From Trichoplax sp. H2 (lineage: Eukaryota): a stretch of 64,000 nt of DNA. The notes below the pieces were generated by a model, which searched no databases, was not told the origin of the DNA, and saw only the letters and a list, made by a program, of their open reading frames with translations. How positions within the stretch are numbered: position 1 is the first letter of the stretch; each line of letters opens with the position of its first letter. Both the position numbers and the translations under genes were made by a program. The stretch covers positions 170,119-234,118 of the forward strand of contig NOWV01000083.1 of the NCBI GenBank assembly GCA_003344405.1, read 5' to 3'. This document shows positions 590 through 62,247 of the stretch, in pieces.

Positions 590-20882
<20,293 letters not shown>

Positions 20883-23800: not shown

Positions 23801-24644
23801 TGTAGGAATAGATAAACATAGGATACTGTTTCGAATATTCGTAATGATATACAGTATATGTTATATATATATATATATCTATAATATATACGTATATAAC
23901 AAAACTTTCTTAGTCAGCAGAATTGAACTGATTAAATCATCCAGTAACTGTAACTGTATTGAATAGCATTTCATTTAACTATGCCATACAGTGCAAAATA
24001 TGACTTTCTACACCGTAATTCATCAATTATTACTGATAAAATATGATAGTATCATTAATCAATAAAAATATTCCGAAATAAATGCACAATCCAGTCTTTA
24101 CCTGTTTATCAAATCGGTCGATTATTGCCTGAACCCATTCGTTACACTGAGGTATGATCGCCATGGATGTCCGATGACATGAAATGGTAATCTCTCTCTT
24201 ATGTTAGGCAGATATCGTAGTACGTACAGTAGTAGATATATCCTCTACTTTATAGTTTCATCCACTTAATCATAAGAGTTGATGGCTTCTAGAACGCCGG
24301 ATATAAGGCGATTTCAGTCTAATTTACTCGTGTACGTAAAGTATCTGCCCTCTAAACCATTCACTAAATTATTACTCAGTAAAGCAAGGTATCGTACAGT
24401 ACTACGTAGAATGATTGGTTAGTTAATTAAGTTACCGTAAGACCAAAGCATCTTTTACAATGTATTTGAAGGGTACAGCAATTGTCCAAAATTACTCATT
24501 ACTTTCTTATATTAATACTGTCAAACTGTTATTCCACCATTCACCAGTAACGGCAGCAAGTCACACAACATACAACACAATATCCTGATTATAATTACCA
24601 TTAATGATTTGCAAGCTGCTTATTTCGACACGGTTTTGTTTTTA

Positions 24645-24990
24645 CTGTATCAATTATACAATATACAGTACTGTCTGTGCTAATACGGTACAGTACTTAC
24701 TATAATTATTACAGTACGATACCGCGGACTAACAACCATTCGAAAGACGTCATACTCAGTTGATATACAGTAGGTATTGTACTGAACAGTACACTACTGT
24801 ACACTGTACAGTATAATAAAAAAAGAAAGAAAAAACTTTTATCTTTTTACCAGATCAAAGACTACTGTACAGTACAGCATGCTCCTTGCACGATCTCTAC
24901 AGTACTGTACTGTACATCATAATACAATACAGTAGTACTATACTGTACACACAGTACAGTATAGCGCACAGTACTGTACTGTACATTGGG
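24645..24990. repeat. Interrupted (TACTG)n/(CAGTA)n palindromic microsatellite cluster.
   Basis: Direct reading: gtacagtactgtctg...tactgtacagtacagcatg...ctgtactgtacat. Confidence 0.85.
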
Positions 24991-25183
24991 ATCCGATTTC
25001 TTCAATGCGTTTGAATAGTAAAAACTAAAAACTATAGGTAAAACGCTTAAAAACGATTAATCGTTATGAACCTTCCTATACAGATAGATCTCTTATTATA
25101 TATTAAAATCATACATTTGCGATCATTTTTGTACAAATTGATGCAGAAATTGTAATATCGAATCCATCGGATCACGTCGTGCA

Positions 25184-26200
25184 TACAGTACAGTATTACG
25201 ACACAGTGCAATAACCAAATCCATACTGTACTGTACTGTACTGTACACTGTACAGCATTCAGTGTCGTCAATCTTTCTTTTCAGCTTAAACAGTAATTCT
25301 CCAGAATTTACTGAAAAATTTTTTAAATTGGACATTTTACTGGACAGTGGCCCGGCAGGGCATTATCTTTTTCTGATTTATTAACAGATTATTTCTATTA
25401 TTGAGGAATTTTTACTTCTGTACTAACTCAAATCGTTTAACATTAAACCGGAACCTGATCCAGTGATGCATTACATACGGTACTGTAGTAATTGTAATAG
25501 TGTGTACTATACTGTACACTTGAAATATCTTTTACCGTGCGACTGTACTCTACTGTACCGTCTGTACGGTAAGAGTATGATTGCAGCTGGTTCGTCTGTG
25601 GTTACGAATTTACTGTACGTAATTGCTAGCGAATCTGACATGGAGGAATACGAATTCTTCCACCCCACTATCTTTAAACCGCAAGGAACAGTTTTTAGCG
25701 GAAAAATACAGATAATTATTCACATATCTCTTGATTTTAAGAGTTGGGGGCATATTACTGACCACACGCCCAGAAATCTATAAATAGCCATACACGCTAC
25801 AGTATACAGTGTACAGTTCGTCGTACAAAATTTTAAAATACTGTAATCTTCGTACTGTACTGTACTGTACTGTACTGTAGTGCTCAATAGAGACCCTACA
25901 GTACTGTACAGTACAGTGCTGTACTTTATACTGTACTGTACAGTACTGTACAGTATTCACTATTCAGTACCGTTCCGTAGTACTGTACAGTACTGTACTG
26001 TACTGTACTGTAAAAGAAATCTCGATACAGCACAGTACTGTACATTAAAGCGTATAGCAGAGTTCTGACTAGTGAGCATTAGTGTTAGGATTGCTTTCAT
26101 TTTGTCTGCATGTCTACAGTACTGTACAGTACTGTACATCCCTCTGTAATACTGTACTGTACTGTATAGTACTATACAGTCTATACTATACAGTGTACAA
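25184..26200. repeat. Cluster of several (TACTG)n/(CAGTA)n tracts in the intergenic desert between NF1 and KMT5A.
   Basis: Tracts lie at about 25184-25258, 25470-25570, 25790-26060 and 26115-26200. Every ORF here is a repeat translation (STVQYCTVQY...). Confidence 0.85.
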
Positions 26201-30464: not shown

Positions 30465-30615
30465 ACTGTACTGTACAATACAGTACAGTAAGCTACAACG
30501 AACAATAGGATTGTATGGAGCACTGCGTATGATGCAAGTAACGTGCTGTACTGTACACTGTACAGTACAGAAAAGTAGTGTCTTGTACTGTACTGTACAG
30601 TATGTAATTGAAAAA
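30465..30615. repeat. (TACTG)n/(CAGTA)n palindromic microsatellite flanking the 3' side of the tRNA gene.
   Basis: ctgtactgtacaatacagtacagtaagc...gtactgtacactgtacagtacag...tactgtactgtacagtatg. Confidence 0.85.
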
Positions 30616-30618
30616 TTG

Positions 30619-30625
30619 AAAAAAA
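30619..30625 (-). terminator. RNA polymerase III terminator (T7 run) immediately 3' of tRNA-Ile.
   Basis: The minus-strand sequence after the tRNA 3' end is GTCATAAATTTTTTTC. Confidence 0.7.
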
Positions 30626-30633
30626 TTTATGAC

Positions 30634-30706
30634 TGGTCCGCATGGGGCTCGAACCCACGACCTTCGCGTTATCAGCACGACGCTCTGCCGACTGAGCTAA
30701 CGGACC
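30634..30706 (-). tRNA. tRNA-Ile(GAU): Nuclear tRNA-Ile with a GAT anticodon. It is 73 nt and has no intron.
   Basis: The minus-strand sequence is GGTCCGTTAGCTCAGTCGGCAGAGCGTCGTGCTGATAACGCGAAGGTCGTGGGTTCGAGCCCCATGCGGACCA. The fold is a cloverleaf with a 7-bp acceptor stem, a D stem GCTC/GAGC, an anticodon stem TCGTG/CGCGA with loop CTGATAA (GAT at positions 34-36), and a T stem GTGGG/CCCAT with loop TTCGAGC. The body closely matches eukaryotic tRNA-Ile(AAT) apart from A34 to G. Confidence 0.9.
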
Positions 30707-30819
30707 ACTCCGACAATGTACATTCTACAATACTATTAAAAACAAGATGTAGCGCTCAAACCTCACAAATTTCACCGGGATCGTAAAGACACGATTCATT
30801 CAATGAGTCACAGTATCGT

Positions 30820-30965
30820 ACTGTAACTGTAAAACATTTAGCAACACTTAATATTTTTACGTATTACATCATAATGTACAGTATAGTACCGTGCAGTACT
30901 ATACTGTAGTGTGCTGTACTGTACAGTATGGACCGTGACATACTGTACAATACAGTACTGTATAT
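30820..30965. repeat. (TACTG)n/(CAGTA)n palindromic microsatellite 5' of the tRNA gene, between the tRNA and the p62 promoter.
   Basis: gtactgtaactg...gtacagtatagtaccgtgcagtactatactgtagtgtgctgtactgtacagtatg...tactgtacaatacagtactgtat. Confidence 0.85.
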
Positions 30966-31040
30966 ATTTATTTATAAACATTAGTGTACTGTATAATATG
31001 GACGGTTTGTATTATATGCTGTATAATAACTTCTATATTT

Positions 31041-35900: not shown

Positions 35901-38900
35901 TGTATTATTTTAGATCTGTAATTGCAAACAGCTTTAAGGGATCAATTATTTCAAGTACGGTACCTACCGATGATCCCAACAAAAGTTAAGAGATGATAAA
36001 GAAGCTAAGAAACTGCCGAATGTAGGTCCAGTAATTAATACTAGGCAACTTTGGTAAAATCCGAGCCAAATAATAAGACGACAAATCAGATACTGTACTA
36101 GTGCAATTTAATGTCTCATACTAACTAATAAATAGCATTCTCATTACAAATAGCGTGTAACAAGTAACTTACCCGATGCAACGTGATAAGGTAAGTAAAG
36201 AAGATGCAATCGAGTAGACAGCCATATTATCACCAACATTTTCGTCTCTGAATCAGTTTTAAAAAATTTTAAATCAACGATACAACAATGTATAACTAAC
36301 TCATGAAGTAATGTGTTTTATTCATTTTTAACTATATGGCGAATTATGTCTTAAGTCAACCTTAACCATTAGCGACTATATTAGCAGTGATGATTTCCTC
36401 GTCTACTATACCACGATTATCACGTATTACTGTACTCAATAGCTAGACAAAAAAAATGGCGGAAAATAGTAACGATATAAGCAATGACCTATAGTATTGT
36501 AAGAAAATTTTAATATACCCACACCCATATCTTATATTTTCAGTGATATCATATCAATTCAAGATTGAATTACAATTAAATAATCTTATAATCTTTCACA
36601 TCTTCTTTTAGGTAAACAATACTGTACCTGGCTGAAGAAAGTAAATCCGCAAAAACTGGAATATAAACGAAATTCATAGCTGTACCACGAATAATCATTG
36701 AGACTATAATGATCGACAGTTTCCTAAATTAAAATACCATAGCAGGTACCATAATAAGGTATAAATATACGCTTACCAAATAATAAATGAATACATAAAA
36801 TCATGGTATTGCATTTAATTAATTAATGGATCTATTTAGGAACACTTCAAATAGTAAATCTTACTCCCTTTTATAACTGTAATCTAAGTAAAGCTAAAGA
36901 ATAATCTGTTATATGCTATATCTGATAAACTTTCTAGGCCATTAGAGACGAATTCCTTACAGTTTTAAGTGAAAATATGGGATGGAGCGATTAGTTGCAA
37001 TGATATCCCTAGTAATATTAATCCTATAATTATAAATGGTTTATGTCCCTATAAAAATAGCAAACAATTTCAATTTTCCTTTAGGGTTTGATTTCAATTC
37101 AATCGCAATAATTTTCAAATTAGATAAATATCAAAAGAGTATTTACAGACCAATTTATCGGCTAAAACACCAACTACAACTCCTAAAATCACATATACGC
37201 CAACCGGAATCGAAATAACGCTGGCAATCTGAACTGCATTTCATATGAAGCTATTTGATTTGATTTGTGAGGAAGAAATATAGGCAGATCTTTATTTAAA
37301 ACATACAGTATTTAATATCCCCTAGTTGACTCTTTGCGGTATATTAGTGTTATGCTATAACGTATGACAATATGTACTATTATAGGTACCTATATTGTGT
37401 TAAGAAAATAAACTAAAAAATGCAAATGTGCACTATTCTACGCATCCTATTAATAATTAGAAAGCACTAAAATTTAAAAGTATTAAAGTACTGGTATAAT
37501 TTGAAACAACTCAATTCATTTCTGCGCGCAGTGTACTCTATTGCCTTGAATAGTACGTAAATTTTATATCCGTAAGACTCGTTTCAATCAATAATGAATA
37601 ACGTAACTAATATGTCTTTAGCTGCTGAATAAGATGACTAAGTACATTTACTAACAATCTAATATCACTTATCATATCAACTTTATGCTACTTGTTTGTA
37701 TAACGTTAATTGATTGCTAATTTACCATATCTGATGCAATGCATTTAGATATTCAGACATCCTACTGAAAGGGTATTATCATGTAAATAATTTATCGAAT
37801 TCTTTAAAATTGTGACGATCAAAAACATTTGATTAACAATCAGTGTCAATAAGTGGTGTGATACGAACAATGATTACATTCACAGACCTCGATTGTTTAA
37901 AACCAATGGCTAAAATCTCGAAAAGAATAATATGTAATAAAATTCATGATCAAATGATAGAATAGTTGAAATCAGGAGCTAATTTGAATTGGTAATTTCG
38001 GAAGATCGTAGCTGATATTTCGATTGGTTCGCTTTAATATTAATGATCGTACAAAAATTTTATAGATAATAAGTTATTCATCCCTACCATTTCATGATAT
38101 TATATTAATGGCCAGTTATTTCTATCTTGTGAAAGATAAGTAATTTTTAAAGTTTTAATTAATATTATCACTTGTACACTATATATTTTTATACGTGTCA
38201 CCTTCGCTATTTAATGTATAAAATATTAAGGTGGCAATCATGCGACATTTAAATGTAAACGTTATAACTACGCTAATGCTAATTAATATTCTCCTTATGC
38301 AGCCCTACCTCGATATGTTAATCGAGTAGATTTATACTTGACAACATACGGTATAATACAAGATTATTACTTGTACATGAAAATTACAGCAACAGGTAAG
38401 GTTAAAGGTGTGAGTTATTTTTAGTGGTCTGTAGTACTTGTAATCTAATTCGCTGGTATAAAATCAAGAATATCAACTATGTTTCGTCTATTACTTGCCT
38501 TTTATTAAGTACATCAAAATATAAACTAGTATGCAAAGATACAGTAGGATCATTCGTAATATTATGGATTTATATAAAATAGATTTTGTGGTGAATTCCC
38601 AAGACTCCTTAAATACAATTTCTAATTAAGTTAAAGTATAAAGGATATCCTTAATCGGTTGTGTTCTCAAATGTTTATAGTGCGTATGCACCTACGAACG
38701 CATAATTATAGCTGGTCGATTTTATAACGTAAAGCTAGAGTATAACATGTTAATAATTTACGACACTACCTCTTCACGTAGTAAAATTTTTTATTTTACT
38801 TATCACTTCCCTACAAATGTGCCTCTATCAGTCCATACGAAATATTATATTAGCATTACTATATTCTGCTGCAATGAAACTATAACTAAACGAAACAGCT

Positions 38901-40210
38901 TAGTTTTTTCACGGTACTCGATAAATCTTAATAAACAATCGATCTGTTTAGGTAGATAAATTTTAACTGGCTATCTTTGTACATATTATATTGAGAATTG
39001 GACTTGAAAGAAAATTATTATGATATCATTTCCTTAGATTTGAAATTCCATTCTGAAATTTATAAAAATTACAATTTACAGAAACATATATTATACGTGA
39101 AGTGAGGGGCAAGAGTTATCGTCTGCAATAACTTAAATTGCATCTATACATACTAACATATGCAAAATTTCTGATTCTAATTTAGGTATCAACTCTATGT
39201 AAGCCTACTTTTTGCACATGATACTCTCAACTATGAACGAAAGGATGCCGCTGAATTAAGGGACGTATAAAGCAAGCGATGAAATTTATAAAATTAAATT
39301 TAATATAGCTTATACATTAAATGAAGTCTTAAAATAAGTACTAATAATTATCCATTGTGTTGTTAGTTATGCATTTATAATTGCAGATAGAATATGAGTA
39401 TTAAGGAAAGATCTTACTACAATCTCGTGATTATGTAATAATGCTATGACGCGAGAGGTATCTTTGAATCACAGTTAAATTTCTTAAAATATTCACTTCT
39501 AAAGGTGCTAGCACTTTAATCGGCATAGAATTAATTAGGGCATACGTGAATTGAATAGGCATATAGGGTACGGTTAAGAAGTTATGAACAATGATTTTTA
39601 TATTATTATTACAATTTAATTTAATAAATTTATCCTTTTAAAGTTGCCTTTTGCATGTATAAGGAAATAGCTTAACGATTTTGTCGAGGTAAAACGTGGC
39701 ACCGTATATCGGTGAAGCTGTGTTATGCATAAACCTAATTAAGTAGCATGTATACGAATATAAGTATATGGCCGGTCAGTCGCGAAAGGTGCAAGCGCAT
39801 CAGAATGATATAGGTATACCTAATGACAGCTACCAGAGTAAATATACTAGAATGAATTAGCCGCAGTAGTATAAAAAATATGAACGTATTTATTTTGTAT
39901 GTTTTACATTCACATGATAACCATGTATTAGTAGGACTATAGGCCTATGATCATTTTAATTAGTAAAATTATTTATTTACTTCAGATCACCTACGGATTA
40001 TCCTTTATCACTGTTAAGATGAATTTTATATTTGCAAATTATCACCAACTCAGTATCCTACGCGATTATATGCTATAAAAATATACATCTTGTTAATATT
40101 TAAAAGTGTGACAATGTTGTTCCTGTGGCTAGCTGTATCAAGTAGGCACAATTATATTTATTAGTTAGTTTTGTCATAGCGCCTTTATTAATTCTTTTAG
40201 CTATAACTGT

Positions 40211-40424
40211 TCATTCAGCATCATTAGCTGAACAAGTTGTGGAAGCAAAGGCACAACCATCATACTCTTTAAGTAGATGATAGTCTAAATCTCCATTGTT
40301 GCTATTTTTACTAGACTCGAAACTTGAAGGGCCTTTGGTTCGAATACAGGCACATCGTTTAAATTTGCCATTCTCGTAAAACAGTTTTCGCGGAACACCA
40401 ACCCAATCTCTTTCAATGCCCCCA
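40211..40424 (-). CDS. CYB5D2: Neuferricin (CYB5D2) terminal exon with stop.
   Basis: (S)GGIERDWVGVPRKLFYENGKFKRCACIRTKGPSSFES...GDLDYHLLKEYDGCAFASTTCSANDAE* matches human [36 protein letters not shown]...[25 protein letters not shown]. The acceptor is aatatag|. Confidence 0.85.
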
Positions 40425-40637
40425 CTATATTAAGAAATGAAATTGCCATAATGAGAGGGTAACGATAATTTAAGAATCCATATCACACAGAAAGTTAATA
40501 TAAGCATTTTTAATAAATGACTATAATTATGTACTTTTGTATACCTGGATGAGATATAATGAATATATACGTAACTGTATCATGGCTATCCTGAATGTTA
40601 GTATAGTTTTACTAAATAGATACAACTTTGTCTATAC

Positions 40638-40839
40638 CTCTTTTTTTCGCACCAATAAACTGTCCCCTCTTCTTTAGTCCAATGTGTATTACATCCTGGC
40701 ATTTTAAAATTCTCATTTTCGGCTTCTTTCCGTAATGCGTATGCTTTACTTAGCCTGGTTTTGATTTTAGACAAAATTGGAGCAGGTTCGCCTTTTGCAT
40801 TATAAAATCTCCCTATCAATTTGCCGACATAAGAATAAT
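40638..40839 (-). CDS. CYB5D2: Neuferricin (CYB5D2) exon 2.
   Basis: DYSYVGKLIGRFYNAKGEPAPILSKIKTRL...FKMPGCNTHWTKEEGTVYWCEKK matches human [31 protein letters not shown]...[23 protein letters not shown]. The acceptor is ttttcatag| and the donor is AG|GTATAG. Confidence 0.85.
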
Positions 40840-41366
40840 CTATGAAAAGTAAACATAATTCTTAGTTGAAATCAGGCCTTTAATAATTAATTTAATTACG
40901 GCTTTTCATTTTAAGATACTAGGACGACGCCTAGGACTTTGTATCAGGTTAATGACAAACTAAATGCAATGCATCAATAAATAAGTTGCTACATATTACC
41001 TTTGTGATAGAAATCGATCCATTCTTTAATACCTATGAAGTTCTCATGAGATAACCCTTTAATTTCATCATTTAGACCTAAAATAATTATATAATTTAAA
41101 TATAAGAAAAAACAAATACTATTTTTACCCGCATTCTAGATTAATCTGGTACAGCACTGCATTTCCTTTGAATTGTAGCCAATACAATATCGACATTTAG
41201 CCAACTTAGCCGTAGATCGTGATAATATATCGCACTGTTAGCTGGTATTGAGTGTTTATTGATGAAATAATTACGATTATTACTCTACTAAATATAATTA
41301 ATAAATAGTAAGGTATTCATACTGTTATGACTGCGATAGGAGATGGAATAGGTTTATGAGTTTTAC

Positions 41367-41853
41367 CTTTCTCACTAAAATCTCCAGTTACGAAAGCTCT
41401 TGTGCCATCACGACCGGAAAAAAAATTATATCCACCACCTTTACCGTAATGTTCCTTTCCTTTGGTTACATCAAATACTTGGCCCAAAACAGCTAAATAG
41501 ATTGGCTTCTGTGGATCATCACCGTTATATTGTTTTAGATCAGAAGCTGTAAATATCTGACCATCGGGCGCAATGACATTGCTGAGATCTGTACTAGATC
41601 CAGAACCAGTTCCGACAGCCGGTCGTTTAGATTCGTCTTTATAATTATTTTGATAGCTTTCGGCTGTATTCGCTAGTAAATCAACATCTTGTTTATAAGC
41701 GAATACACCTGCAGCAATCGCTGCTGCTAAGATAAAGATAGGAACTAATTTTGATCCTTTGGAATTACTTTCTTGGTTAGTTTCTTCTGGTTTCTCTATC
41801 TTATCAGTTTTGGAGTCATCTGATTTGGCTGCTTTTCGTCTAGTTACAGCCAT
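41367..41853 (-). CDS. CYB5D2: Neuferricin (CYB5D2) exon 1. It encodes an N-terminal TM/signal-anchor and a cytochrome b5-like heme/steroid-binding (MAPR) domain.
   Basis: MAVTRRKAA...LVPIFILAAAIAAGVFAY...FTASDLKQYNGDDPQKPIYLAVLGQVFDVTKGKEHYGKGGGYNFFSGRDGTRAFVTGDFSEK matches human [63 protein letters not shown]. The donor is G|GTAAAA. Confidence 0.85.
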
Positions 41854-42014
41854 TTCTATAATTCTTTACAGATCAAATTTAGTAATCCAATTATGGTAAG
41901 GGCCCCTCTGCAACTAGGTATGACTGTGATCAAGCATAAAAAGATATTTGATTTGTTAGTTGCTCGTTCCTTTTTGCGATCGAAATGCACCGGTAGAGTG
42001 AAACACTGTCCAAG

Positions 42015-42110
42015 TACAGTACAGTACTGTACTGTACTGTACAGTTACGATACTGTACTGTACTGTACTGTAGGTTTACTGTACTGTACACTGTACTGTA
42101 CAGTGCTGCT
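42015..42110. repeat. (TACTG)n/(CAGTA)n palindromic microsatellite in the neuferricin/HNF1 divergent intergenic region.
   Basis: gtacagtacagtactgtactgtactgtacag...tactgtactgtactgtag...tactgtactgtacactgtactgtacagtg. The ORFs 41893..42162 (+) and 41930..42139 (-) are repeat artefacts. Confidence 0.9.
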
Positions 42111-42427
42111 TTACAGTACGCCCATAGGCCACAGTCCAATGGTACAGTTTATGGACTACTAAAGTTTACAGTACTGCAACAGCAACCAGAAGAGCCAGAA
42201 AGGACTACGTAGATTACACTTGCGCAGATAATTTCATTTAGCGCTTTAGACTTATTAAACAAGGAGTGAGTTGTGGTGCTGACCATTTTTTGTTCGTTTA
42301 CACTGCATTGTACAGCTACACAAACCTTTCTTTTGTTCTCATTTGGGTTCTTTTCGTTCATGTTTTATTTATATTGCAGTTTTCCACTGCTTTTAAAACT
42401 GATATCGTAAGAAGAAATTCCAAGATC

Positions 42428-42595
42428 ATGGCACTAACAGAGCTACAGCATGAATTGCTCACTGCGTTGCTCGACAGTGGTGTCAGTAAAGCAACGTTGA
42501 TACAGGTTCTGACTATGCCAGAGCATTCGAATAGCATCTCACGGGATTATTCATATATTGGAAATGGTGATGTTGCCTTTGGGACCTTTCATCAA
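42428..42595 (+). CDS. HNF1: HNF1 homeobox gene, exon 1 (start codon and dimerization domain).
   Basis: MALTELQHELLTALLDSGVSKATLIQVL matches HNF1A/B [30 protein letters not shown]. The donor is inferred as CAA|GTTGGT (weak, phase 0), because the downstream acceptor is phase 0. Confidence 0.7.
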
Positions 42596-44044
42596 GTTGG
42601 TTAATAATTGTAATTATATATGTATAACATATACAATATATTATAAATAATTATTCGTTTCGCAAATTAGCATTGAACCATACTGACCTATTATTTACTT
42701 GCGTTTTTTTAAATTTTCATGCGCTTAAGTGCTGGTCTTGCTGTATTACATGATACATAAGGTGCACTATAGTACTACACTACGTATAATTAATTAATAC
42801 AACATCACTATAGAAATGATCATGATCACATTTCACAGCCGTCAACGACACAGTAGAAATATTCGTGTGGTATATATTTGTTTTCACGACTATATTAGTT
42901 GATAACATACAAAGTATATACAGTAGTACTGGTATCATTTATTTAATATGCTACTATGGATTCCATTTTTACTTCCAGTCAATATTTATGGCTAGTCTAC
43001 TTGATCTTATTACAGTACTGTAACTATAAACAGCACATCGGCTCGGCGGGAAAGTGTTTTACATGGTTGTAATACGGATAAAATCCATAGTAAAGGAACG
43101 GGGTCGATATATTGGTTACTAATATCAATATTAGTAGGGTCAAGGCAGAATTGTGCGATAATGCATTTGAATGTGATTGCTAGCTCTCGAAGCTGCAAAG
43201 GAATACTTCATCTATTTCAATATACTGTAAAGTACAGCACGGACAGTATAACACAGAAATACCAATCCAAGCAGAGAAGTCGAACACAGCCAATGTACGT
43301 ACATACTGTACAATAGTGTGCAATACTTAACCGTAGGCTGCTGCTTGTGTCAGGTAACGAGTATTAATCAGTGGCTGCACATTTTGAAGAGCGCGCTGGA
43401 ATCGTTTCAACGTGTTTTAAATAGTTCGTAACCCATATAGTAATCCCTACAACGTTTATTGCATTTATATTCCTAATAACTCACGCAGTATTTTAAAAAT
43501 TTATCAATACATAATACTAGATCAGTCTATTAAATATCTTTCAAGTTCTTCAAATAAAATTAGAGTCAGTTCAACATATATTTATATACAAAATTGAATG
43601 CGTCAACAGCTGTGAAATGTCTCTAGTATAGGGTCGTAAACGCTTGGCACATGGTAATATATAAACGTGCACAATCGTAATACGAAACAAAAGCGTAGTA
43701 TAGGGCGGTAGCAACCCTTGCATAGGAGATCCGCCTTATCCGCAATATGCAATGGCAGATAGTGGCAAAAGCGAACAAAATCGTAAGGAGTACCGGTACT
43801 ACGAGACGACTGTGAGTCTATAGTACTGTTTATGCAGGAGACTGGTACATACTGTACAGCACGCTGTAGGGTGTATCGCTATCTACAGATTTCTTGGCCG
43901 AGTGATCAGTAATACCTATGCCCCCAACTCTTGAAACCAAGAGATATGTAAATAATTATAATCATCTGTATCTTTCCGCTAAAAGCTGTCCCTTGCGGTT
44001 TAAAATAAAGATGGTATGCAAATCGTTAATTTGCGATACACCCT

Positions 44045-44110
44045 ACAGTGTACACTGTACAGTACAGTACTGTAAACATCGCGACTTGCTCTACTGTACA
44101 GTACTGTATT
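44045..44110. repeat. (TACTG)n/(CAGTA)n microsatellite inside the 2.8-kb HNF1 intron 1.
   Basis: cagtgtacactgtacagtacagtactgtaaac...ctactgtacagtactgtat. Confidence 0.85.
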
Positions 44111-45440
44111 TCTGAGATATTTGAACAAGAAAAATCAATGATTCTTTCTTTTTATCCTGCTTAAATTATACATCAATCGGTAGAGAAAGAGCTAAACAAC
44201 CGTAGTTCATCAATTAAAATTTGCGTGCGACGTCGATTGTACATCGCAGAGCATACTGTCATTAGAGAACACATACAGTACAGTACAGTACGGTAACACA
44301 GCTAAACTTGACCGTGCTAGAGAATGAAAATACTACACATTTAATAATTATATATAAGTATATACGCCTATAATAATTATTCCATAACGAACAATTAATT
44401 AATGGTTATAAAGCTGCTTAAATAGCCGATCTTAAAACTAGTTACCTTAAATGTTGTTCTCGTTCATATCCAGAATATATTAGCTTATTTTAATGTTGAC
44501 AAAATAATAGTTCGATACGAAAGGCTATTACAAAGCGGCTGGGATGTAACCATAATTAGCCAGTTAATTTACACAGATATACGTGTAGATGGAGGTCTGT
44601 GTTGACTGCCGAGACATGGATGCGACCAGGAATTCAGGAGACCAGGATTACTTAAAATACGCGTAGACCCTAATCATGCTGTTTGGAGTAATGCAATACT
44701 GTACAATTCCTTATTACGAAATCTACCGTTATGGTTCTTAAGCGGAGCTTATGACTAAGATTGCCATCTTTGAGTTTTATATAATTACTGTTATTTATTA
44801 TTTAATTATATTATATAACTATTGATACCTAATATCATCATTCGTAATTTATTAAATGTAAATACAATAATTTTCTTGGTTCATTATACTCATTTCGATC
44901 ATGCGATAAACGTTATTAAAATATTATAATATATACAACGTTATGATGTCGATTTTATGGCGATATTATACAATGTGACGATTAATATTCTGTACACGAG
45001 CGCATCTACATAAATACTGAAGGAATAGAATTTTACTAACATGAATGACTTCGACATTGTCTTTCATAAATAAAGTTCTGTAGTTATATATCAAATGAAG
45101 GCTTGCATGCGTAGAACTGTTTAAGACCCGATTAATCTATTTAATGTACAGTATTTGCGGTTTATAGGGTGTTCGCAGTGTTGTAATTGTTTTATATCCA
45201 TATTAAGCATGCTTTAATTTAAAATTGCGGTACTGGTGATACTGTATTTACTCTTTACTCTATGATATTGTAGAGTTCGCGTACAATGCAGACAGCACAG
45301 ACGGCTTGATTGCTAACGTGTGGATCTCGAATAAAGCAGAAATGCTTGATATCTTCTCTTATATAAAAGCCCAATCGCTTTATAATTTTCATTACTGGAT
45401 GTATTTAGCGTTAATCCATCTCTTACCTTTTATATTACAG

Positions 45441-45562
45441 TTAGATTCAACGTATCCGACTAATAATGATGCCATAGATCTTATAACTGATGCGAACGTG
45501 ACTGATATTGTAAAAGTTCTAAAGGATAGAGGACCTCTGGCAGCTGTTGAACGTTTACTAAG
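45441..45562 (+). CDS. HNF1: HNF1 exon 2 (linker and start of the POU-specific domain).
   Basis: The acceptor is ttttatattacag| and the donor is AG|GTAAAG. The product is LDSTYPTNNDAIDLITDANVTDIVKVLKDRGPLAAVERLL. This corresponds to HNF1B [26 protein letters not shown]. The acceptor choice is moderately uncertain because the frame is open upstream. Confidence 0.6.
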
Positions 45563-46549
45563 GTAAAGCGATATAATATTTTTATGCTCCAAGCTGATAA
45601 TGAAACACCTTTTTCCGGTATAGGCACGGCAGAACGTACAGTAATTCGACTTATGTAATCGTGAGATAATTTGTAAGCTCTCTAATTTAAATACGCGTTC
45701 TATTATGTACAATAATACTATTGTAATCACCCCGACCGTTTCGATTGTAATTATCGCTCTGTCCCTAACCATTGCACCACTTCAATATTTTGCACAGTGT
45801 TGTTCTAGTCAGCTCTCAAGTTTTTATTCGGTATCGAAAATTATACGGTACAGTTATGCGGTATTCCGAACGCTTGTTGATGAAGTTGTATTGCTTCAAT
45901 TATCAGTTATAACGAAGAGCATACTTAATAACAGCTATTGTCTTATTAGATATGCTAGAAACTACATTTCTAGTTAAATCTTACTTTTTTAGGGAATCTA
46001 CATTTTTAAAATCATTGTACATATTAAATTGGAACAAATATCTTTCTGTTATGACATTTAAATAATGGAGAGTTATTAAATACGAAAGTGCACAACTATA
46101 ACCAAAATTAACCTGTATTATATAGCTGCTTTCTATCTTCTGATAGCTAGTAAGGCATTACATAGAGATAAATCCTTAAAAGTTTTGATTCTTCATATCA
46201 ACGAAATTTAACCATTCATATCAGTATTTATTGCACTCAGCTAAAAATTTAGTTGAAACTCAGGTTACTGTGTATCAGTTATCCTATAATGATCTAAATT
46301 TTATGCTATCTGCCCACTGCCTAATTTCGATTGTAAGTAAATATGATAACGGTATTATTTGAGTGTGCCTTGGTGTTGTTGTTTTATTAGTTATACTGTA
46401 CTTACTTCTGTGATAGTATTAGCATGTGATTTTCAATAATCTGCTCTACATTAGCTGTTAAGGCTAAAAGCCAGTTTTTATACTGACTTAAAATATATCA
46501 TACTTCAGCAGGGATTGACAAAAATACAATGTTTAATTACAATTTACAG

Positions 46550-46749
46550 TAGTGACCCATACAAAGTTGCCAAAATGATCAAGACTTTTATGCAGCAGCA
46601 TAGCGTATCTCAGCGTGAAGTCGTTGAATCTACATCGCTGAATCAAAGTCATTTATCACAACATCTAAACAGAGGTACAGCAATGAAAACACGTAAAAGA
46701 TCTGCGCTTTACTTGTGGTATGTGAAGAGAATTATGTTACTACAAAGAC
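46550..46749 (+). CDS. HNF1: HNF1 exon 3 (POU-specific domain).
   Basis: [61 protein letters not shown] matches HNF1[62 protein letters not shown]. The acceptor is aatttacag| and the donor is C|GTAAGT. Confidence 0.9.
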
Positions 46750-46875
46750 GTAAGTTACTATTACACTTTACTTTTTGATATTCTCTCATTTTGGCTTCTA
46801 TTTCTATTCATATAGTTTAGTTTTGTATATATCTGTATGGTAATGAATTGTCTATCTTTATAAAATCGTTAATAG

Positions 46876-47211
46876 ACGAAAGCGATATAGAAGATGATAC
46901 TACAGTAAACTTAACTATAGATGATCTACCGAGTAGCCCTCCTTCCCCCAAGCGACAACGCCGTAGTCGATTTAAATGGGGTTCAGCTAGCAAACGTATT
47001 TTATATGATTCCTATGCTAACAATACAAATCCTTCAAAGGAGGAACGTGATATGTTAGTTGATGCTTGCAATCATGCTGAGTGTGTTCAACGCGGCTTGC
47101 TGCCAAATCATGAGAGTGCTTTAGGTTCTAGCTTGGTTACTGAAGTTCGGGTATACAATTGGTTTGCCAACCGCCGCAAGGAGGATACTTTCAAGATAAA
47201 ATATCGTAATA
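46876..47211 (+). CDS. HNF1: HNF1 exon 4 (atypical homeodomain).
   Basis: [81 protein letters not shown] matches HNF1 [78 protein letters not shown]. The acceptor is gttaatag| and the donor is A|GTAAGT. Confidence 0.9.
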
Positions 47212-47323
47212 GTAAGTATGAAGAATATAATAATAATTCTCCAAACCATACTTTCAAATAGAAATACTAGCGAACATGATTTATTTGACGTTACTAAATA
47301 TTTTACTTTGTGTGATTAATTAG

Positions 47324-47922
47324 ACCCAACTAGTCTTAACCCTTCGATGGAATCGACTCATCTAGATAACAACACTACCGACGGTTCTACGCTTTTAGAG
47401 TGTAACGGAGGTAGTGCAGTTACCCAGCAATTACAGGGGTTGACTGGTTCTCCTACTGGTACTTCTTGCGCGCTTTCAATGAGTCGTATTCCTCCAAGGG
47501 GTAGAAATTTAGTCAGTATGAGCATACCAGAACAAAATCTTGCAACTTCCGATTTTATGCAAGTTTCTCAGAATAACACGAAAAGAAACGATACTGATAT
47601 ACAGCCTAACAGCTCAAATATGCAGCAAGTAATGCTGCCTGGAATATCACATTTTAGATTAAATATAAGGAAGAACGACTTATCAATTAATCAAACTGAA
47701 GGATCTGAAGCTATTATTACTGCTTCTAATCTTGCCACCGCAATTAATAATCGCCAATTGAATACATTATCGAGTATTAAATCACAAGTTAACAACGAAC
47801 AGTTACGGCAAGGATGTTTACCTGAAGAAAGTCAGCCTTTGTTCGAAACTAGTAACAACCCTAGTTTACCAGTGTTATCTCAGTCTCAAATGCCACATTT
47901 AAATAGTATTTCTCATTGAATA
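47324..47922 (+). CDS. HNF1: HNF1 exon 5, encoding a low-complexity S/T/N/Q-rich transactivation-like C-terminus, with stop.
   Basis: The acceptor ttaattag| is in phase with the exon 4 donor. It is a 199-codon open frame rich in S/N/Q/T, as is typical of HNF1 C-termini. The stop TGA is at 47920-47922. Additional downstream exons cannot be excluded. Confidence 0.6.
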
Positions 47923-54205: not shown

Positions 54206-55059
54206 CTAATGACCAAAACAAATAAGAAAAACGTTGACTTAATTAAATATTCTTATGCACGTACAATACTGTACTGTATAGTATACATTATATATATACT
54301 TATACAGCATGTCAATTTTGTAAAATTAATTGATTACAATACAAATTCTGCATGGTGCAGACTGCTGAGTGACTTTAGCACCAAGTCTGCACGCCATTAC
54401 GTCATTCCTTGAAAATACAAGCATACGTACAGTATAATATTTTCACATTTTTACAATACTGTACAGTACAGTACAGTACGGCTCAGTTCAGCACCAAAAA
54501 ATGGCAGCAAACACTGCCTAAAATTTTTATGTAGAGAAGCAGAAATTGCGGCTTACAGTAGGTTTATCATGTAATATAATGATAGACTTCTTTCTGAACT
54601 TAAGTAATATAATAATGTTAGTTCATCTTTCTTACAATTTAAAAATTATATCATAAGGACTGATTGTACTGTACTAGTGTATAGAATTATTAACTAGAAA
54701 TTAAATTGGACTACACTAATCGTACAGTCAAAATTTAGACATGTTTTTACTTTGCAAATTTACATAGAAATGAACTCGGATGAAAATCATACTGTAATAA
54801 AATCAGTTTAGCAGTATAAAAAATGCTAGATCCAAGGAAGGAGGATCCTTAATAAAAGTTTATGGTTGTGCTACAGCTGTGTATATTAGTAGCAAATAGA
54901 ACAGTCAGTAGCTGTGAACGTATCATTTATCAGCTAACGATAAAGATAAATGTAGTACTGTCCAGTACTGTAAAGCGTACTGTCCCGTACTACTCGTACG
55001 TCTACTAAGGGTATTTGAATATTGTGTACTATATTTACTGTACTGTATTAACTACTAAC

Positions 55060-55486: not shown

Positions 55487-55960
55487 GCGGAATACTGTAC
55501 AGTGTACAGTACAATACTAACTACAGTACATACTGTACACTGTACAGTACAGTACTGAAAAAAGCATTCGCTATCATCGTCATCGACGGTAGCCACGATA
55601 CGACAGTCTCACTCGTTGCAGTTTGTATGAGTCACAGTATGCCTTTTGCCTACCCGTTACGGTACTCTTGTTCGGCGTGCAGATTACTACGGTGGCCCAT
55701 TACTGTACAGATTGCTGTACAGTACAGTGTACAGTACAACAAGTACAATACTGTACTGTAAGTTGTACAATAAATACAATACAATGTACTGTACAATGTA
55801 CAGTGTACAGTACAGTACTCGATATGGCTACCTGATCCTTGCTTGGATCATCATAGCGTAAAAAACCTACAGTACTGTACTGAGTACACCTGAAATTTCT
55901 ATTAGCGTGATTAATTATTGTACTGTACAGTGTACTGTACACTGTAGAAGAGCACCGGTG
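55487..55960. repeat. Large interrupted (TACTG)n/(CAGTA)n palindromic microsatellite block in the ANKRD13/POLR1C divergent intergenic region.
   Basis: Tracts lie at about 55487-55560 and 55700-55960, for example gtacagtacagtgtacagtacaacaagtacaatactgtactgtaag. The ORFs 55450-56047 on both strands are repeat translations (YSTVQYCTV...). Confidence 0.9.
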
Positions 55961-59279: not shown

Positions 59280-59852
59280 ACTGAACGGTATTTGATGGCG
59301 GTATTTGTAATGTATTGTTCTAAATACATACTAACTGTATACACTGCTTTCTGTTAACTCATTCATTTGACAAGACACCCTTCGGACATGCACTGCAAAG
59401 AGTTTCATAATTATTAGATATTTCTATGTTACATCCTTCAGATATAGTGTACATTGTATACAAATAGCTATCACTATGTGTATACATATGCCGGTATACT
59501 GTATAAATCGCTTTACAAGAATACTCGGTAGGGTGTGATATACCGGTTTTACCTGATATTAAATATTTGATTGCAATGATCGCTTATATGACACCATCCG
59601 CCGTGCCAACAAAGGTTTATTACTGTACTTTATATGGCTAGTTTTTTGTATGAACTTATAACATATTTCTTGATTGCGTTATGTTTATGAGCGAAAATAA
59701 ATGAAGTAAATGTATAAACACCGCACGATGTACGGTATTAAATTGACAACGTCTCTGATTCAAGGAGTCAAATGATAGAACGCCTGACCATATCGAAGTA
59801 GAGAATACTCGTCTACGTACAGTACATAGTATCACCTTTAAGTTAGCCTATT

Positions 59853-59938
59853 CTACTGTACTGTAGAATAGGCTGTACTGTACTGTACTGTACATCAAAT
59901 GTACAGAATGTACAGTACACATTGTACGGTACAGTAGG
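59853..59938. repeat. (TACTG)n/(CAGTA)n palindromic microsatellite downstream of POLR1C.
   Basis: attctactgtactgtagaataggctgtactgtactgtactgtacatcaaatgtacagaatgtacagtacacattgtacggtacagtag. Confidence 0.85.
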
Positions 59939-60479
59939 GATAGTATGGACTGTCATTGCTGTCATGGCTTACCAGAAAATGATTTTTGAAGTTTTTAATA
60001 GTCCGTGATACTATCTACTTTACGTACAGTAGACCAGTGAAACTTAACTGGTCTATTGCACAGTATTTGTACTATATAGCCAGCAGAGTATGACATCAAA
60101 GATGAAGATACAGTACAGTATGTGTAAACTTGATATTAATGATATGAAAACTAGTACTGTAGCATTTATTTTCGAGAAGATATCCTCATTTACTTTGTAG
60201 CGATCAAAATGATTGCTAAATAGTCAGATATCCGTATTAAGTTAAGATAATATAGTATTCATTTATCATTAGTGATTGATATTGCATGGACTTTGCAAGT
60301 TGATCAATTAAAACAAGCCAGGGACCTCTAGCCATTTACGCATACTGATAATTTAAAATTTTTTTACTTGAGAGGTCACTGTACTGTACACATAGTGACA
60401 GCGCTGTACAGTACTGTATGAAGCCTGGCCTGGAGTACCGTACTATCAGTAGAACACTAACTAGTTTTAAGTTTTACTA

Positions 60480-61020
60480 GTACAGTACAAACTCCCGTCG
60501 CTATGCTGACGGATTACTTTGTTATAATATTACAAACTCCCGTCGCTTTGCTGACGGATTATGTTCTTATAATATTATACTTCTAGAATATTATTTTACA
60601 ATAATACTTCAAAAGTGACTCGGCCTTGCATCGCTATGCTGGCGGATTACGTTGTTATAATATTACAAACTCCCGTCGCTTTGCTGACGGATTATGTTCT
60701 TATAATATTATACTTCTAGAATATTATTTTACAATAATACTTCAAAAGTGACTCGGCCTTGCATCGCTATGCTGGCGGATTACGTTGTTATAATATTACA
60801 AACTCCCGTCGCTTTGCTGACGGATTATGTTCTTATAATATTATACTTCTAGAATATTATTTTACAATAATACTTCAAAAGTGACTCGGCCTTGCATCGC
60901 TATGCTGGCGGATTACGTTGTTATAATATTACAAACTCCCGTCGCTTTGCTGACGGATTATGTTCTTATAATATTATACTTCTAGAATATTATTTTAAAA
61001 TAATACTTCAGACGTGACTC
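60480..61020. repeat. Tandem minisatellite of about four copies of a ~133-bp unit. Each unit contains two ~45-bp subrepeats, and each subrepeat holds an imperfect inverted repeat (CCGTCGCTTTGCTGACGG).
   Basis: caaactcccgtcgc recurs at about 60488, 60533, 60666, 60800 and 60932. The unit is ...tcgctttgctgacggattatgttcttataatattatacttctagaatattattttacaataatacttcaaaagtgactcggccttgcatcgctatgctggcggattacgttgttataatattacaaactcccg..., with less than 3% divergence between copies. Confidence 0.9.
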
Positions 61021-61037
61021 GGTCTTGTCCTCATTTA

Positions 61038-61310
61038 CTATACTGTACTGTACAGTATAGTACAGTACGTAGCTAACATGTGATACAGTATCACTTACCG
61101 GCGTTTTTTTATCATTTGTACAGTACAGTACTGTACTGTAGATACTGTAGATAAAAAAAAATGTTATGCTCTTGATTTTTAATAAAGTGGCAGTTAGCGC
61201 GCACGCGTAGGGCGGAAAATTTAAAAATATGCTGTGGTCACTCAACATGCACAGTACAGTAATTTCAATTTGAAATTTAATTTCTGTTACAGTGTACAGT
61301 ACAGTACAGC
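61038..61310. repeat. (TACTG)n/(CAGTA)n microsatellite tracts upstream of BUB1B.
   Basis: Tracts lie at about 61038-61072, 61108-61150 and 61245-61310 (for example gtacagtacagtactgtactgtagatactgtag). Confidence 0.8.
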
Positions 61311-62247
61311 ATGTTACATTTGTGATGACAGACTAGTCTCTGTCGTTAAGTAGCTGGTGACGACTGTCGAAGCCATAGCGAATCTGGAATCGTGAAGAAC
61401 GACCGTTAATAGTTTACGCTACATTTTCTATCATTCACAGTAAAATTGACGGTCTGAAAAGCGATCTAAAAGGTAAGTTAAATGTCAAACTCTATCATGT
61501 ATGATCCTCCAACCTATAAACATGAGTAATAGCTGATTTTTAAGCTTAATCCTTAAATTTAAAAAATTTTGAATGCAATACATACAGTATAGTAGACAGT
61601 AATATGGATTTACAGTAAATATCAGTCGTCAGTTGAAAACAGCAACCTACGCAAGCAAGCAAAATAGGCTGTAATTAGGCTAGCTTTCTCGTCTACATTA
61701 CTGACAACATTAGAACTGGACAAACTAAATAATTTACTTATTGCTCTATCGTATCCTCTCCCACTATACATACACTACATTAGACGTATACAGTACTGTA
61801 CAGTATATCTATCCTCTTCTGTGTAACGTTATTTAGATGCATATACTGTACGTATATGGTGTTGAAAATTAATAATTCTCGAATTAATTCCTAACACTCA
61901 TATACTCAAATACGGTACAGTACTTTTAGTAAAACTGCACAAAGAATATAAGTGAATGTACTTATTAGGTCTCAGCGCACCGATATCTTAATCATTAACA
62001 ACATGGTGTTTAGTTTAGTGTTAGTGAAACTTCTGTCTAGAGTTTTCCAGGGGTAGCATGCATGTTAAAAAAATTTGAATCGTAACCTTAGGATTCATTT
62101 AATAATTTTTTAAAAGGGAACTTTGCAATCGTCTATTATAGGTATAATTCATCGTACGAATTTTAGCTGGAGGTGACAGACCAAACTAAAAAATCAATCC
62201 TTATTGATTGTTGATATTATAGCCGAGGGATAAAAAGCTGTCTAGAG

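What the first reader, a model, noticed from the sequence alone, without database searches (positions are those of the whole stretch)
41854..42427. 574-bp bidirectional promoter region shared by neuferricin (-) and HNF1 (+), with a central palindromic microsatellite
The start codons of the two divergent genes are only 574 bp apart. About 100 bp of (TACTG)n/(CAGTA)n alternating palindromes (42015-42110) sits in the middle. The same arrangement recurs between ANKRD13 (-) and POLR1C (+), whose ATGs lie 1.39 kb apart with about 470 bp of the same repeat at 55487-55960. Tracts also lie upstream of p62, BUB1B and NF1. Such palindromic pentanucleotide arrays can extrude cruciforms and exclude nucleosomes. 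Their systematic placement at promoters suggests a structural or regulatory role (nucleosome-free region, insulator, or a site bound by a sequence-specific factor), rather than random slippage.
Basis: partly seen in the sequence, partly recalled or inferred. Interest (0 to 1): 0.6.

Follow-up and report, generated by a model that had tools for sequence, protein, structure and literature searches.

The report
Placozoan promoter-linked ACAGT/GTAC repeat arrays
The short repeat between two back-to-back Trichoplax genes is real and lies almost only next to gene starts, but this (ACAGT)n repeat and its upstream-of-gene bias were published in 2010, and its function is still unproven.

Summary
The window is Trichoplax adhaerens (placozoan) DNA. 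The neuferricin (-) and HNF1 (+) start codons are 574 bp apart, with a roughly 90-bp pentamer array at 42013-42104 plus remnants to 42176. The unit is best written GTACW. GTAC recurs at 5-bp spacing 104 times in the window against 0.7 expected, and the spacer is A or T in 100 of 104 cases. So the "alternating palindromes" are just A/T spacer changes. Placement is strongly non-random. Of 32 arrays, 24 lie in the six promoter-bearing intergenic regions (23% of the window) and one in the two 3'-3' intergenic regions. All seven genic arrays lie in first introns. The phenomenon is already known. Wang et al. 2010 reported (ACAGT)n as the dominant Trichoplax microsatellite (5,624 loci, 54% within 1 kb upstream of genes) and proposed it as a transcription-factor site. 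A 2026 Micro-C neural-network study recovered a repeating ACAGT motif as a chromatin-architecture determinant. Function is unproven. My best guess is a multi-site platform for a GTAC-reading factor that helps keep 5' regions open or insulated, with length evolving by slippage. A neutral promoter-biased microsatellite remains a serious rival. Cruciform and nucleosome claims are untested.

The parts
41854..42427 (.). 574-bp shared 5' intergenic region between the divergent neuferricin-like (-) and HNF1 (+) genes
   Evidence: ATGs at 41853(-) and 42428(+). The divergent arrangement is conserved in another placozoan, 843 bp apart there.
42013..42104 (.). Main (GTACW)n array of the finding: nine in-phase GTACWGTAC dimers with mixed A/T spacers
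   Evidence: TRF rows 42014-42101 and 42020-42104, orientation track, array list. Identical in the GCA_000150275.1 copy.
42013..42038 (.). 26-bp perfect palindrome (AGTACAGTACAGT/ACTGTACTGTACT) inside the array
   Evidence: the repeat finder I6: 13-nt arms, 100% complementary, 0 nt between them. ssDNA fold of 42005-42125: -30.6 kcal/mol, z=-4.83.
42112..42176 (.). Degenerate array remnants (TACAGTAC, GTACAGT, TTACAGTACTG). Site of a 5-bp unit indel at about 42156 between two T. adhaerens copies.
42263..42427 (+). Non-coding block conserved with another placozoan (core 42283-42310). Probably the HNF1 5'UTR or core promoter. The array lies just upstream of it.
   Evidence: Alignment A2. The functional label is inference.
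41317..41853 (-). First coding exon of the neuferricin-like cytochrome-b5 gene. The ORF listed here reads on into intron 1.
   Evidence: (100% identity to TRIADDRAFT_16260)
42428..42601 (+). HNF1 exon 1 (dimerisation domain). The 3' limit is only the end of the open frame.
   Evidence: HNF-1_N in the L003 orthologue. The Pfam hits fall on downstream exons.
3404..3611 (.). (GTACW)n arrays in the intergenic region upstream of an RGS-domain gene (-) and downstream of the NF1-like gene
24394..26162 (.). Cluster of six (GTACW)n arrays between the divergent NF1-like (-) and SET/KMT5A-like (+) genes
   Evidence: RasGAP and SET Pfam hits.
30468..30993 (.). Arrays flanking tRNA-Ile (30633-30707, -) upstream of p62 (+). 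A 5-bp unit indel lies at 30962.
44057..44291 (.). Arrays in HNF1 intron 1
   Evidence: Intron assignment from ORFs is inference.
54461..54674 (.). Arrays in ANKRD13 intron 1
55504..55940 (.).
59817..61923 (.). Seven arrays between the POLR1C 3' end and the BUB1 ATG (62248)
   Evidence: Mad3_BUB1_I Pfam hit.

Best explanation
The tract is one local copy of the genome-wide Trichoplax (ACAGT)n microsatellite family. It is better described as arrays of the self-complementary tetranucleotide GTAC repeated every 5 bp with an A or T spacer. Shown: these arrays are confined to 5' regulatory neighbourhoods, meaning DNA upstream of start codons (including shared divergent promoters) and first introns. 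They read the same on both strands. Inferred: they act as multi-site platforms for a sequence-specific, probably oligomeric, DNA-binding factor that recognises GTAC in either orientation. Such a factor would help keep the region between neighbouring transcription units open or insulated. Shown in part: array length and spacer pattern drift by unit slippage. Inferred: spacer switches arise by strand-switch (inversion) events, so copy number is not precisely conserved.
For: (1) Distribution. 87 of 100 GTACWGTAC dimers and 24 of 32 arrays lie in the six promoter-bearing intergenic regions (22.7% of the window). One array lies in 9.8 kb of 3'-3' intergenic DNA. All six promoter regions outrank all eleven other regions (Mann-Whitney p=3.6e-4). 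All seven genic arrays lie in first introns of the NF1-like gene, HNF1 and ANKRD13. Eight of nine ATGs have a dimer 161-617 bp upstream. (2) Genome-wide literature. There are 5,624 perfect ACAGT loci but only 14 in ESTs; 54% lie within 1 kb and 85% within 5 kb upstream of genes (PMC2871265). My Poisson null gives 10.5% and 42.5%. A 98-row sample of their table gives 62% within 1 kb, median 711 bp, and includes several divergent gene pairs. (3) Core versus spacer. In units anchored by flanking GTACs, the core is G 81%, T 95%, A 88%, C 90%, with mostly transition-type decay. The spacer is A 42% and T 54-56%, with C+G only 2-3%. (4) Orientation is not tied to gene direction. (5) Ordinary ACAGT microsatellites elsewhere are single-orientation. 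In 120 metagenome contigs there were 1,393 same-spacer against 177 switched neighbours, and only 10 of 120 mix A and T. All six promoter regions here mix them. (6) A CNN trained on T. adhaerens Micro-C recovered a repeating ACAGT motif de novo. The authors state that all motifs they found significantly changed predicted contact maps on in-silico insertion (PMC12817080). (7) The 92-bp array is identical between two copies that differ by 0.8% overall. A short CAGTACAGTACTGTAG lies at a similar distance from the HNF1 ATG in a diverged placozoan.
Against: No binding protein, accessibility, nucleosome or expression data were available here. TSSs are unknown, so ATGs were used. Arrays are imperfect (64-79% matches), scattered over kilobases rather than at a fixed promoter position, and differ greatly in length between species (16 bp against about 90 bp), as neutral microsatellites do. 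Unit-length indels occur between haplotypes. The cross-species positional match is one locus and not significant: about 0.25 chance, my estimate from the motif counts. A CNN can learn any promoter-correlated sequence as a proxy, so the Micro-C result does not prove causation. The window is array-rich, about 7 times the genome mean. My gene map is approximate: the 5' ends of the RGS and SET genes are uncertain.
Confidence: 0.4

Rival explanations
1. Neutral by-product. This is an ordinary microsatellite whose birth and expansion is favoured in open, negatively supercoiled promoter DNA, where hairpins would promote slippage and strand switching, or whose spread into most transcribed DNA is selected against. 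It marks promoters but does nothing.
For: 5-bp unit indels between two T. adhaerens copies at 30962 and 42156, and 4-5 of 25 indels fall in tracts that make up 5% of the sequence (p about 0.04). Same-spacer neighbours are over-represented (27 against 11), as slippage predicts. Array length is not conserved between placozoans. ACAGT microsatellites exist in many other eukaryote-derived contigs. ACAGT loci are near-absent from ESTs (14 against 5,624).
Against: This rival does not explain why one motif alone makes up 78% of pentanucleotide SSRs. It does not explain why the spacer is a balanced A/T mix with almost no G or C, while the core decays by transitions. It does not explain why first introns, which are transcribed, are tolerated while 3'-3' intergenic DNA is empty. 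Interrupted arrays here are stable: the main array is identical at 0.8% background divergence.
Confidence: 0.3
2. Transposon-derived. The arrays are termini (TIR-like ends) or relics of non-autonomous DNA elements, such as those an automated pipeline labels 'Mutator'. These elements insert preferentially into promoters, and the promoter bias reflects their insertion preference.
For: Kim et al. 2025 report EDTA-annotated Mutator elements enriched at looping (GP1) promoters in placozoans (PMC12221973). Any two GTACW arrays look like inverted repeats to a TIR finder. One roughly 150-bp dispersed element (25673-25817 and 43851-44004) is flanked by arrays on both sides. The 133-bp ACGG-bearing tandem array is also flanked by arrays.
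Against: Self-BLAST of the window finds only array-to-array matches plus that single 150-bp pair. There are no shared flanks or internal sequences for the other arrays. The neuferricin/HNF1 region has no GACGG or CCGTC motif. The Chimaera authors assign ACGG, not ACAGT, to the transposon. Wang et al. found a TE content of 0.13% and a single MITE family of about 20 copies, against 5,624 ACAGT loci. There are no presence/absence polymorphisms between haplotypes, only unit indels.
Confidence: 0.12
3. Structure-driven element. The palindromic arrays work by extruding cruciforms or by intrinsically excluding nucleosomes, with no sequence-specific protein involved.
For: Perfect palindromes of 26-29 bp and long imperfect ones (27-nt arms, 85% complementary) lie in the array. 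Single-strand folding is much stronger than in shuffles (z=-4.83). The arrays sit between divergent genes, where negative supercoiling accumulates (established knowledge, not tested here).
Against: Palindromy is automatic for any GTACW array: about half of random A/T spacer pairs match. So it is not independent evidence. Perfect arms are short (13-14 nt). Many arrays are only 2-3 units long, too short for stable cruciforms. No nucleosome or nuclease data were available.
Confidence: 0.1

Closest known systems
(ACAGT)n microsatellite of Trichoplax adhaerens (Wang, Zhang, Meyer, Bao 2010, Biol Direct 5:18; PMC2871265)
   Same: Same organism, same motif, same upstream-of-gene bias and same TFBS hypothesis. 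This finding is an instance of it.
   Different: That paper counted only perfect, single-orientation repeats and used no null model. It did not note the GTAC core with W spacer or the orientation mixing. It also did not note confinement to 5' intergenic DNA plus first introns, or absence from 3'-3' intergenic DNA.
Repeating ACAGT motif recovered from T. adhaerens Micro-C by the Chimaera CNN (NAR 2026; PMC12817080)
   Same: Same motif in the same species, linked in silico to chromatin contact patterns. The model also predicts insulation at gene starts in this species.
   Different: It gets one sentence and is not characterised. There is no genomic distribution, no binding factor and no experimental test.
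Loop-anchor / GP1-promoter motif in 'Mutator' TIRs of placozoans (Kim et al. 2025, Nature; PMC12221973)
   Same: A placozoan-specific repeated sequence concentrated at promoters and tied to 3D genome features.
   Different: According to the Chimaera authors that motif is the ACGG type. In this window GACGG/CCGTC clusters only at 60495-60952 and is absent from the neuferricin/HNF1 region. The logo itself is not in the held text, so identity could not be checked directly.
(GA)n / GAGA-factor (and CLAMP) elements at Drosophila promoters and insulators
   Same: A microsatellite-like array of a short site at promoters, bound multivalently to open chromatin and contribute to boundaries. This is the working model proposed here (comparison from established knowledge).
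   Different: Different motif and lineage. No binding protein is known for GTACW arrays.
Heat-shock elements: contiguous 5-bp nGAAn units in alternating orientation bound by trimeric HSF
   Same: A 5-bp modular unit, tolerance of either orientation, and strength that depends on unit number (established knowledge).
   Different: HSEs have 3-6 units at specific inducible genes. They are not thousands of arrays at many housekeeping-type promoters.
Promoter tandem repeats and poly(dA:dT)/general-regulatory-factor sites in yeast nucleosome-depleted regions
   Same: Repeats enriched in promoters, variable in length, and sited between divergent genes (established knowledge).
   Different: Their mechanism (intrinsic nucleosome exclusion, Reb1/Abf1/Rap1) is demonstrated experimentally, but not here.

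Membership tests
Trichoplax (ACAGT)n microsatellite family (Wang et al. 2010) | Organism is T. adhaerens or a very close relative | tested here: met
   Exon ORF 100% identical to TRIADDRAFT_16260. 21.4 kb of the window is 99.2% identical to GCA_000150275.1 DS985249.1.
Trichoplax (ACAGT)n microsatellite family (Wang et al. 2010) | Perfect ACAGT/ACTGT repeats longer than 12 bp | tested here: met
   24 such repeats in the window, four of them at 42013-42089.
Trichoplax (ACAGT)n microsatellite family (Wang et al. 2010) | Located upstream of a nearby gene, mostly within 1-5 kb | tested here: met
   38% of dimers lie within 1 kb and 96% within 2.5 kb upstream of an ATG. The window nulls are 12% and 32%.
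Simple microsatellite (slippage-driven SSR) | Head-to-tail copies of a 1-6 bp unit | tested here: met
   Period 5, 16.8 copies.
Simple microsatellite (slippage-driven SSR) | Unit-length polymorphism between alleles | tested here: met
   5-bp indels at 30962 and 42156 against the reference assembly.
Simple microsatellite (slippage-driven SSR) | Single orientation or pure unit along an array | tested here: not met
   A and T spacers are mixed in every promoter region, with a 29% switch rate against 11% (mostly not A/T) in 120 other ACAGT-bearing contigs.
Bidirectional (divergent) promoter | Two head-to-head genes with starts less than 1 kb apart | tested here: met
   574 bp between ATGs. TSSs are not known.
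Bidirectional (divergent) promoter | Arrangement conserved in related species | tested here: met
   HNF-1_N (-) and Cyt-b5 (+) lie head-to-head 843 bp apart on Logan contig L003, from another placozoan.
Cruciform-forming inverted repeat | Arms of at least 10 nt with a short or no spacer | tested here: met
   13-nt and 14-nt perfect arms with 0-1 nt between them.
Cruciform-forming inverted repeat | Extrusion under physiological supercoiling | not testable with these tools
   Needs nuclease or chemical probing.
MITE / 'Mutator'-type non-autonomous DNA transposon | Multi-copy element with a shared internal sequence bounded by TIRs and target-site duplications | tested here: not met
   Self-BLAST shows no shared flanks or internal sequence for the arrays, apart from one 150-bp pair. 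TSDs were not searched systematically.
Placozoan loop-anchor motif of Kim et al. 2025 (ACGG type per Chimaera) | Presence of the ACGG-containing motif | tested here: not met
   No GACGG or CCGTC in 41854-42427. The cluster occurs only at 60495-60952. The published logo is not available in the text.
Insulator / architectural element | Measured insulation, or a bound architectural protein at the site | not testable with these tools
   Only in-silico support from the literature.

The most novel reading that the evidence does not exclude
GTAC-at-5-bp arrays are the recognition platform of an as yet unidentified placozoan-specific pioneer or architectural factor that reads the palindromic core in either orientation. 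This would be a functional analogue of GAGA factor. It would set up nucleosome-free, insulated 5' regions (upstream DNA plus first introns) at thousands of genes. Alongside the ACGG/Mutator motif, it would be the second sequence determinant of placozoan 3D genome organisation.
Probability: 0.3. Interest if true: 0.6.

Novelty: already known. Interest (0 to 1): 0.3.

Why it matters
Placozoans have a compact genome, with promoter-proximal regulation and thousands of promoter-promoter contacts. The proteins and sequences that organise this are unknown. A single 5-bp motif accounts for about half of all the microsatellites counted (5,624 of 11,697). It hugs gene starts and was flagged independently by a Micro-C-trained model. 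That makes it an obvious candidate cis-element that has gone 15 years without an experimental test. My refinements give concrete probes and controls for that test: a GTAC core, either orientation, and confinement to 5' intergenic DNA plus first introns with none in 3'-3' DNA. If the arrays prove neutral, they are still a clean example of promoter-biased microsatellite genesis.

Tried and rejected
(1) Searching papers for the literal 8-mer or 7-mers gave only primer noise.

(2) The Kim et al. 2025 text and supplements do not contain the motif sequence, so I could not compare it directly. Sebe-Pedros et al. 2018 is not held.

(3) Two of the three homologue searches were largely wasted. A chimeric POLR1C query and an ANKRD13 exon returned only short Logan ORFs. 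Orthologous ANKRD13/POLR1C promoters from other placozoans could therefore not be fetched.

(4) The metagenome scan for arrays of at least five units returned 120 contigs. None is homologous to the window, so it added no placozoan loci. It served only as a comparison set of ordinary ACAGT microsatellites.

(5) Rfam found nothing for the arrays or for the 150-bp dispersed element. The only hit is tRNA-Ile.

(6) I rejected the idea that the tract is the ACGG 'Mutator-TIR' loop-anchor motif, because no such motif lies in the region.

(7) I rejected the idea that array orientation follows gene direction.

(8) I rejected reading the palindromes as separate evidence for cruciform selection, since they follow from the GTAC core.

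(9) The bacterial promoter/terminator scan, structure prediction and plasmid/phage/E. coli searches were not used, being irrelevant to a eukaryotic non-coding repeat.

Full report
**Origin of the window.** The first coding ORF of the minus-strand gene (41317-41853) is 100% identical to TRIADDRAFT_16260 of Trichoplax adhaerens. 21.4 kb of the window aligns at 99.2% identity to scaffold DS985249.1 of GCA_000150275.1. The window is therefore T. adhaerens, or a very close haplotype or strain. It has 29-37% G+C and is gene-dense.

**Gene map.** The map comes from the NCBI calls on L001, six-frame ORFs and Pfam.
- RGS-domain gene (-), 1-1851
- NF1-like RasGAP gene (-), about 5145-24164
- SET/KMT5A-like gene (+), about 28831-29689
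- tRNA-Ile (-), 30633-30707
- p62 (+), about 31344-32978
- neuferricin-like Cyt-b5 gene (-), 40208-41853
- HNF1 (+), 42428-47919
- ANKRD13 (-), 50527-55161
- POLR1C (+), 56549-59276
- BUB1 (+), from 62248

**Observation.** The two ATGs are at 41853 (-) and 42428 (+), so the intergenic region is exactly 574 bp. TRF reports a period-5 array at 42014-42101 (16.8 copies, 79% matches). Motif 7-mers continue in remnants to 42176.

The motif is massively over-represented. TACTGTAC is the most frequent 8-mer in the window (96 copies). The second example also holds: the ANKRD13 and POLR1C ATGs are 1,387 bp apart. The "470 bp of repeat" there is four short arrays, and motif sequence covers 194 bp of that intergenic region. 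Tracts upstream of p62, BUB1 and the NF1-like gene are confirmed.

**What the repeat really is.** GTAC is the tetranucleotide with the strongest 5-bp periodicity. It occurs at 5-bp spacing 104 times, against 0.7 in Markov-1 simulations. The intervening base is T in 58 cases, A in 42, C in 2 and G in 2.

GTAC is its own reverse complement. GTACA and GTACT arrays are therefore the two strands of the same thing.

I examined units anchored only by their two neighbours. In these the core is 81-95% conserved and decays mainly by transitions. The spacer is a near-balanced A/T mix with 2-3% C+G. Neighbouring spacers are correlated (27 same, 11 different), as slippage would give. Even so, switches are far commoner than in ordinary ACAGT microsatellites. 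In 120 metagenome contigs with at least five units, I counted 1,393 same against 177 switched neighbours, and only 10 contigs mix A and T. Orientation shows no relation to the direction of the adjacent gene.

**Placement.** I split the window into 17 regions.
- The six intergenic regions that contain at least one gene start make up 14.5 kb. They hold 87 of 100 GTACWGTAC dimers (5.99/kb).
- The two 3'-3' intergenic regions make up 9.8 kb. They include a 7.2-kb gene-free stretch and hold one dimer (0.10/kb).
- Gene bodies make up 39.6 kb and hold 12 dimers (0.30/kb).

At the level of independent arrays the counts are 24, 1 and 7.
- Binomial test against region length: p=5e-10.
- Promoter-bearing against convergent intergenic DNA: p=4e-5.
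- All six promoter regions outrank all other regions: p=3.6e-4.

All seven genic arrays lie in first introns of the NF1-like gene, HNF1 and ANKRD13. Eight of nine ATGs have a dimer 161-617 bp upstream.

There are caveats. TSSs are unknown. The 5' ends of two genes are uncertain. This single window is about 7 times richer in perfect ACAGT repeats than the genome mean.

**Variation and conservation.** Against the reference assembly, two of 25 indels are exact 5-bp units inside tracts (30962 and 42156). Indels are modestly enriched in tracts (p about 0.04). The 92-bp main array itself is identical in both copies.

In a more distant placozoan (Logan contigs, neuferricin 60% identical), HNF1 and neuferricin are again head-to-head, 843 bp apart. 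The stretch upstream of the HNF1 ATG is conserved. A single CAGTACAGTACTGTAG lies 412-430 bp from the HNF1 ATG, whereas the T. adhaerens array lies 324-415 bp away. This is suggestive but not significant: about 0.25 by chance, given the motif density in that species' contigs.

**Structure.** The array contains a 26-bp perfect palindrome (42013-42038) and longer imperfect ones. As single-stranded DNA it folds much better than shuffles (z=-4.83). This follows automatically from a self-complementary core with A/T spacers. It shows potential, not use.

**Literature.** The phenomenon is published. Wang et al. 2010 (Biol Direct 5:18, PMC2871265) reported the following:
- Pentanucleotides are the commonest microsatellite class in T. 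adhaerens, and 78% of them are ACAGT.
- There are 5,624 ACAGT loci in the genome but only 14 in ESTs.
- 54% lie within 1 kb and 85% within 5 kb upstream of a gene.
- They proposed a role as a transcription-factor binding site.

They gave no null. A Poisson expectation from their gene number and genome size is 10.5% and 42.5%. A 98-row sample of their table gives 62% within 1 kb, with a median of 711 bp. It shows several arrays shared by two different genes, which suggests divergent pairs.

They also found transposons (0.13%) and MITEs (one family of about 20 copies) to be rare.

Kim et al. 2025 (PMC12221973) found promoter hubs in placozoans. Their loop-anchor motif lies in the TIRs of elements that EDTA annotates as Mutator. 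The Chimaera study (PMC12817080) recovered two repeating motifs for T. adhaerens from a Micro-C-trained network, ACGG and ACAGT. It attributes only ACGG to the transposon, and it did not follow ACAGT up. In this window the ACGG-type sequence clusters only in a 133-bp x4 tandem array upstream of BUB1. It is absent from the neuferricin/HNF1 region.

**Interpretation.**
- Shown: a GTAC-core, 5-bp-phased, orientation-free array family restricted to 5' regulatory neighbourhoods, evolving partly by unit slippage.
- Inferred: it serves as a multivalent platform for a GTAC-reading factor that helps keep shared and upstream regions open or insulated (confidence 0.4).
- Main rival: a functionless microsatellite whose genesis is favoured in open, supercoiled promoter DNA (0.3).
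- Lesser rivals: a transposon-terminus origin (0.12) and a purely structural cruciform or nucleosome-exclusion mechanism (0.1).

**Verdict.** The finding is real and the promoter association is well supported. It is a rediscovery of a 2010 result, re-flagged in 2026. The added value here is fourfold: the GTACW description, the contrast with 3'-3' intergenic DNA, the first-intron pattern, and the separation from the ACGG/Mutator motif.

Noticed in passing
window 60498-61027: A 133-bp unit repeated four times in tandem (98% identical) upstream of BUB1. Each unit carries the inverted motif CCGTCGC(T/A)TGCTGACGG. It is the only place in the window where GACGG/CCGTC clusters. It is a candidate for the 'ACGG' transposon-derived loop-anchor or insulation motif reported for placozoans, and GTACW arrays flank it on both sides.
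   Followed up: partly
window 25673-25817 (+) and 43851-44004 (-): A dispersed element of about 150 bp, 81% identical between the two copies, with two conserved hairpins. One copy lies in the NF1/KMT5A intergenic region and the other in HNF1 intron 1. Both are flanked by GTACW arrays. Rfam finds no match at any threshold. It could be a small RNA gene, a MITE core or a regulatory module.
   Followed up: partly
window 30633-30707 (-): A tRNA-Ile gene with anticodon GAT sits between two GTACW arrays (30546-30602 and 30875-30993) in the region upstream of p62. tRNA genes act as boundary elements in other eukaryotes.
   Followed up: no
window 32979-40207: A 7.2-kb stretch between the 3' ends of p62 and neuferricin. 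It has no annotated gene, no Pfam hit on any ORF, 29-30% G+C and no in-phase GTACWGTAC dimer. That is unusually long for this compact genome.
   Followed up: partly
window 55443-55496: A 27-bp direct repeat (TTTGTGAATGGTCAAACTGCGGAATAC, two copies, 96% identical) directly abuts the first ANKRD13/POLR1C array.
   Followed up: no
window 42263-42427 (core 42283-42310): A non-coding block upstream of the HNF1 ATG is conserved with a diverged placozoan. It includes an invariant CCATTTTTTGTTCGTTTACACTGCATTG and is probably the 5'UTR or core promoter.
   Followed up: partly
window 30235-51564 vs L001: The window differs from the 2008 reference assembly by 112 substitutions and 25 indels over 21.4 kb (0.8%), including a 16-bp indel at 40932 inside the neuferricin gene span. 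It is therefore another haplotype, strain or assembly, not the reference sequence itself.
   Followed up: partly
whole window: There are 24 perfect ACAGT-family repeats of at least 13 bp in 64 kb (0.38/kb). That is about seven times the genome-wide mean implied by Wang et al. 2010 (0.054/kb), so this neighbourhood is unusually array-rich.
   Followed up: no
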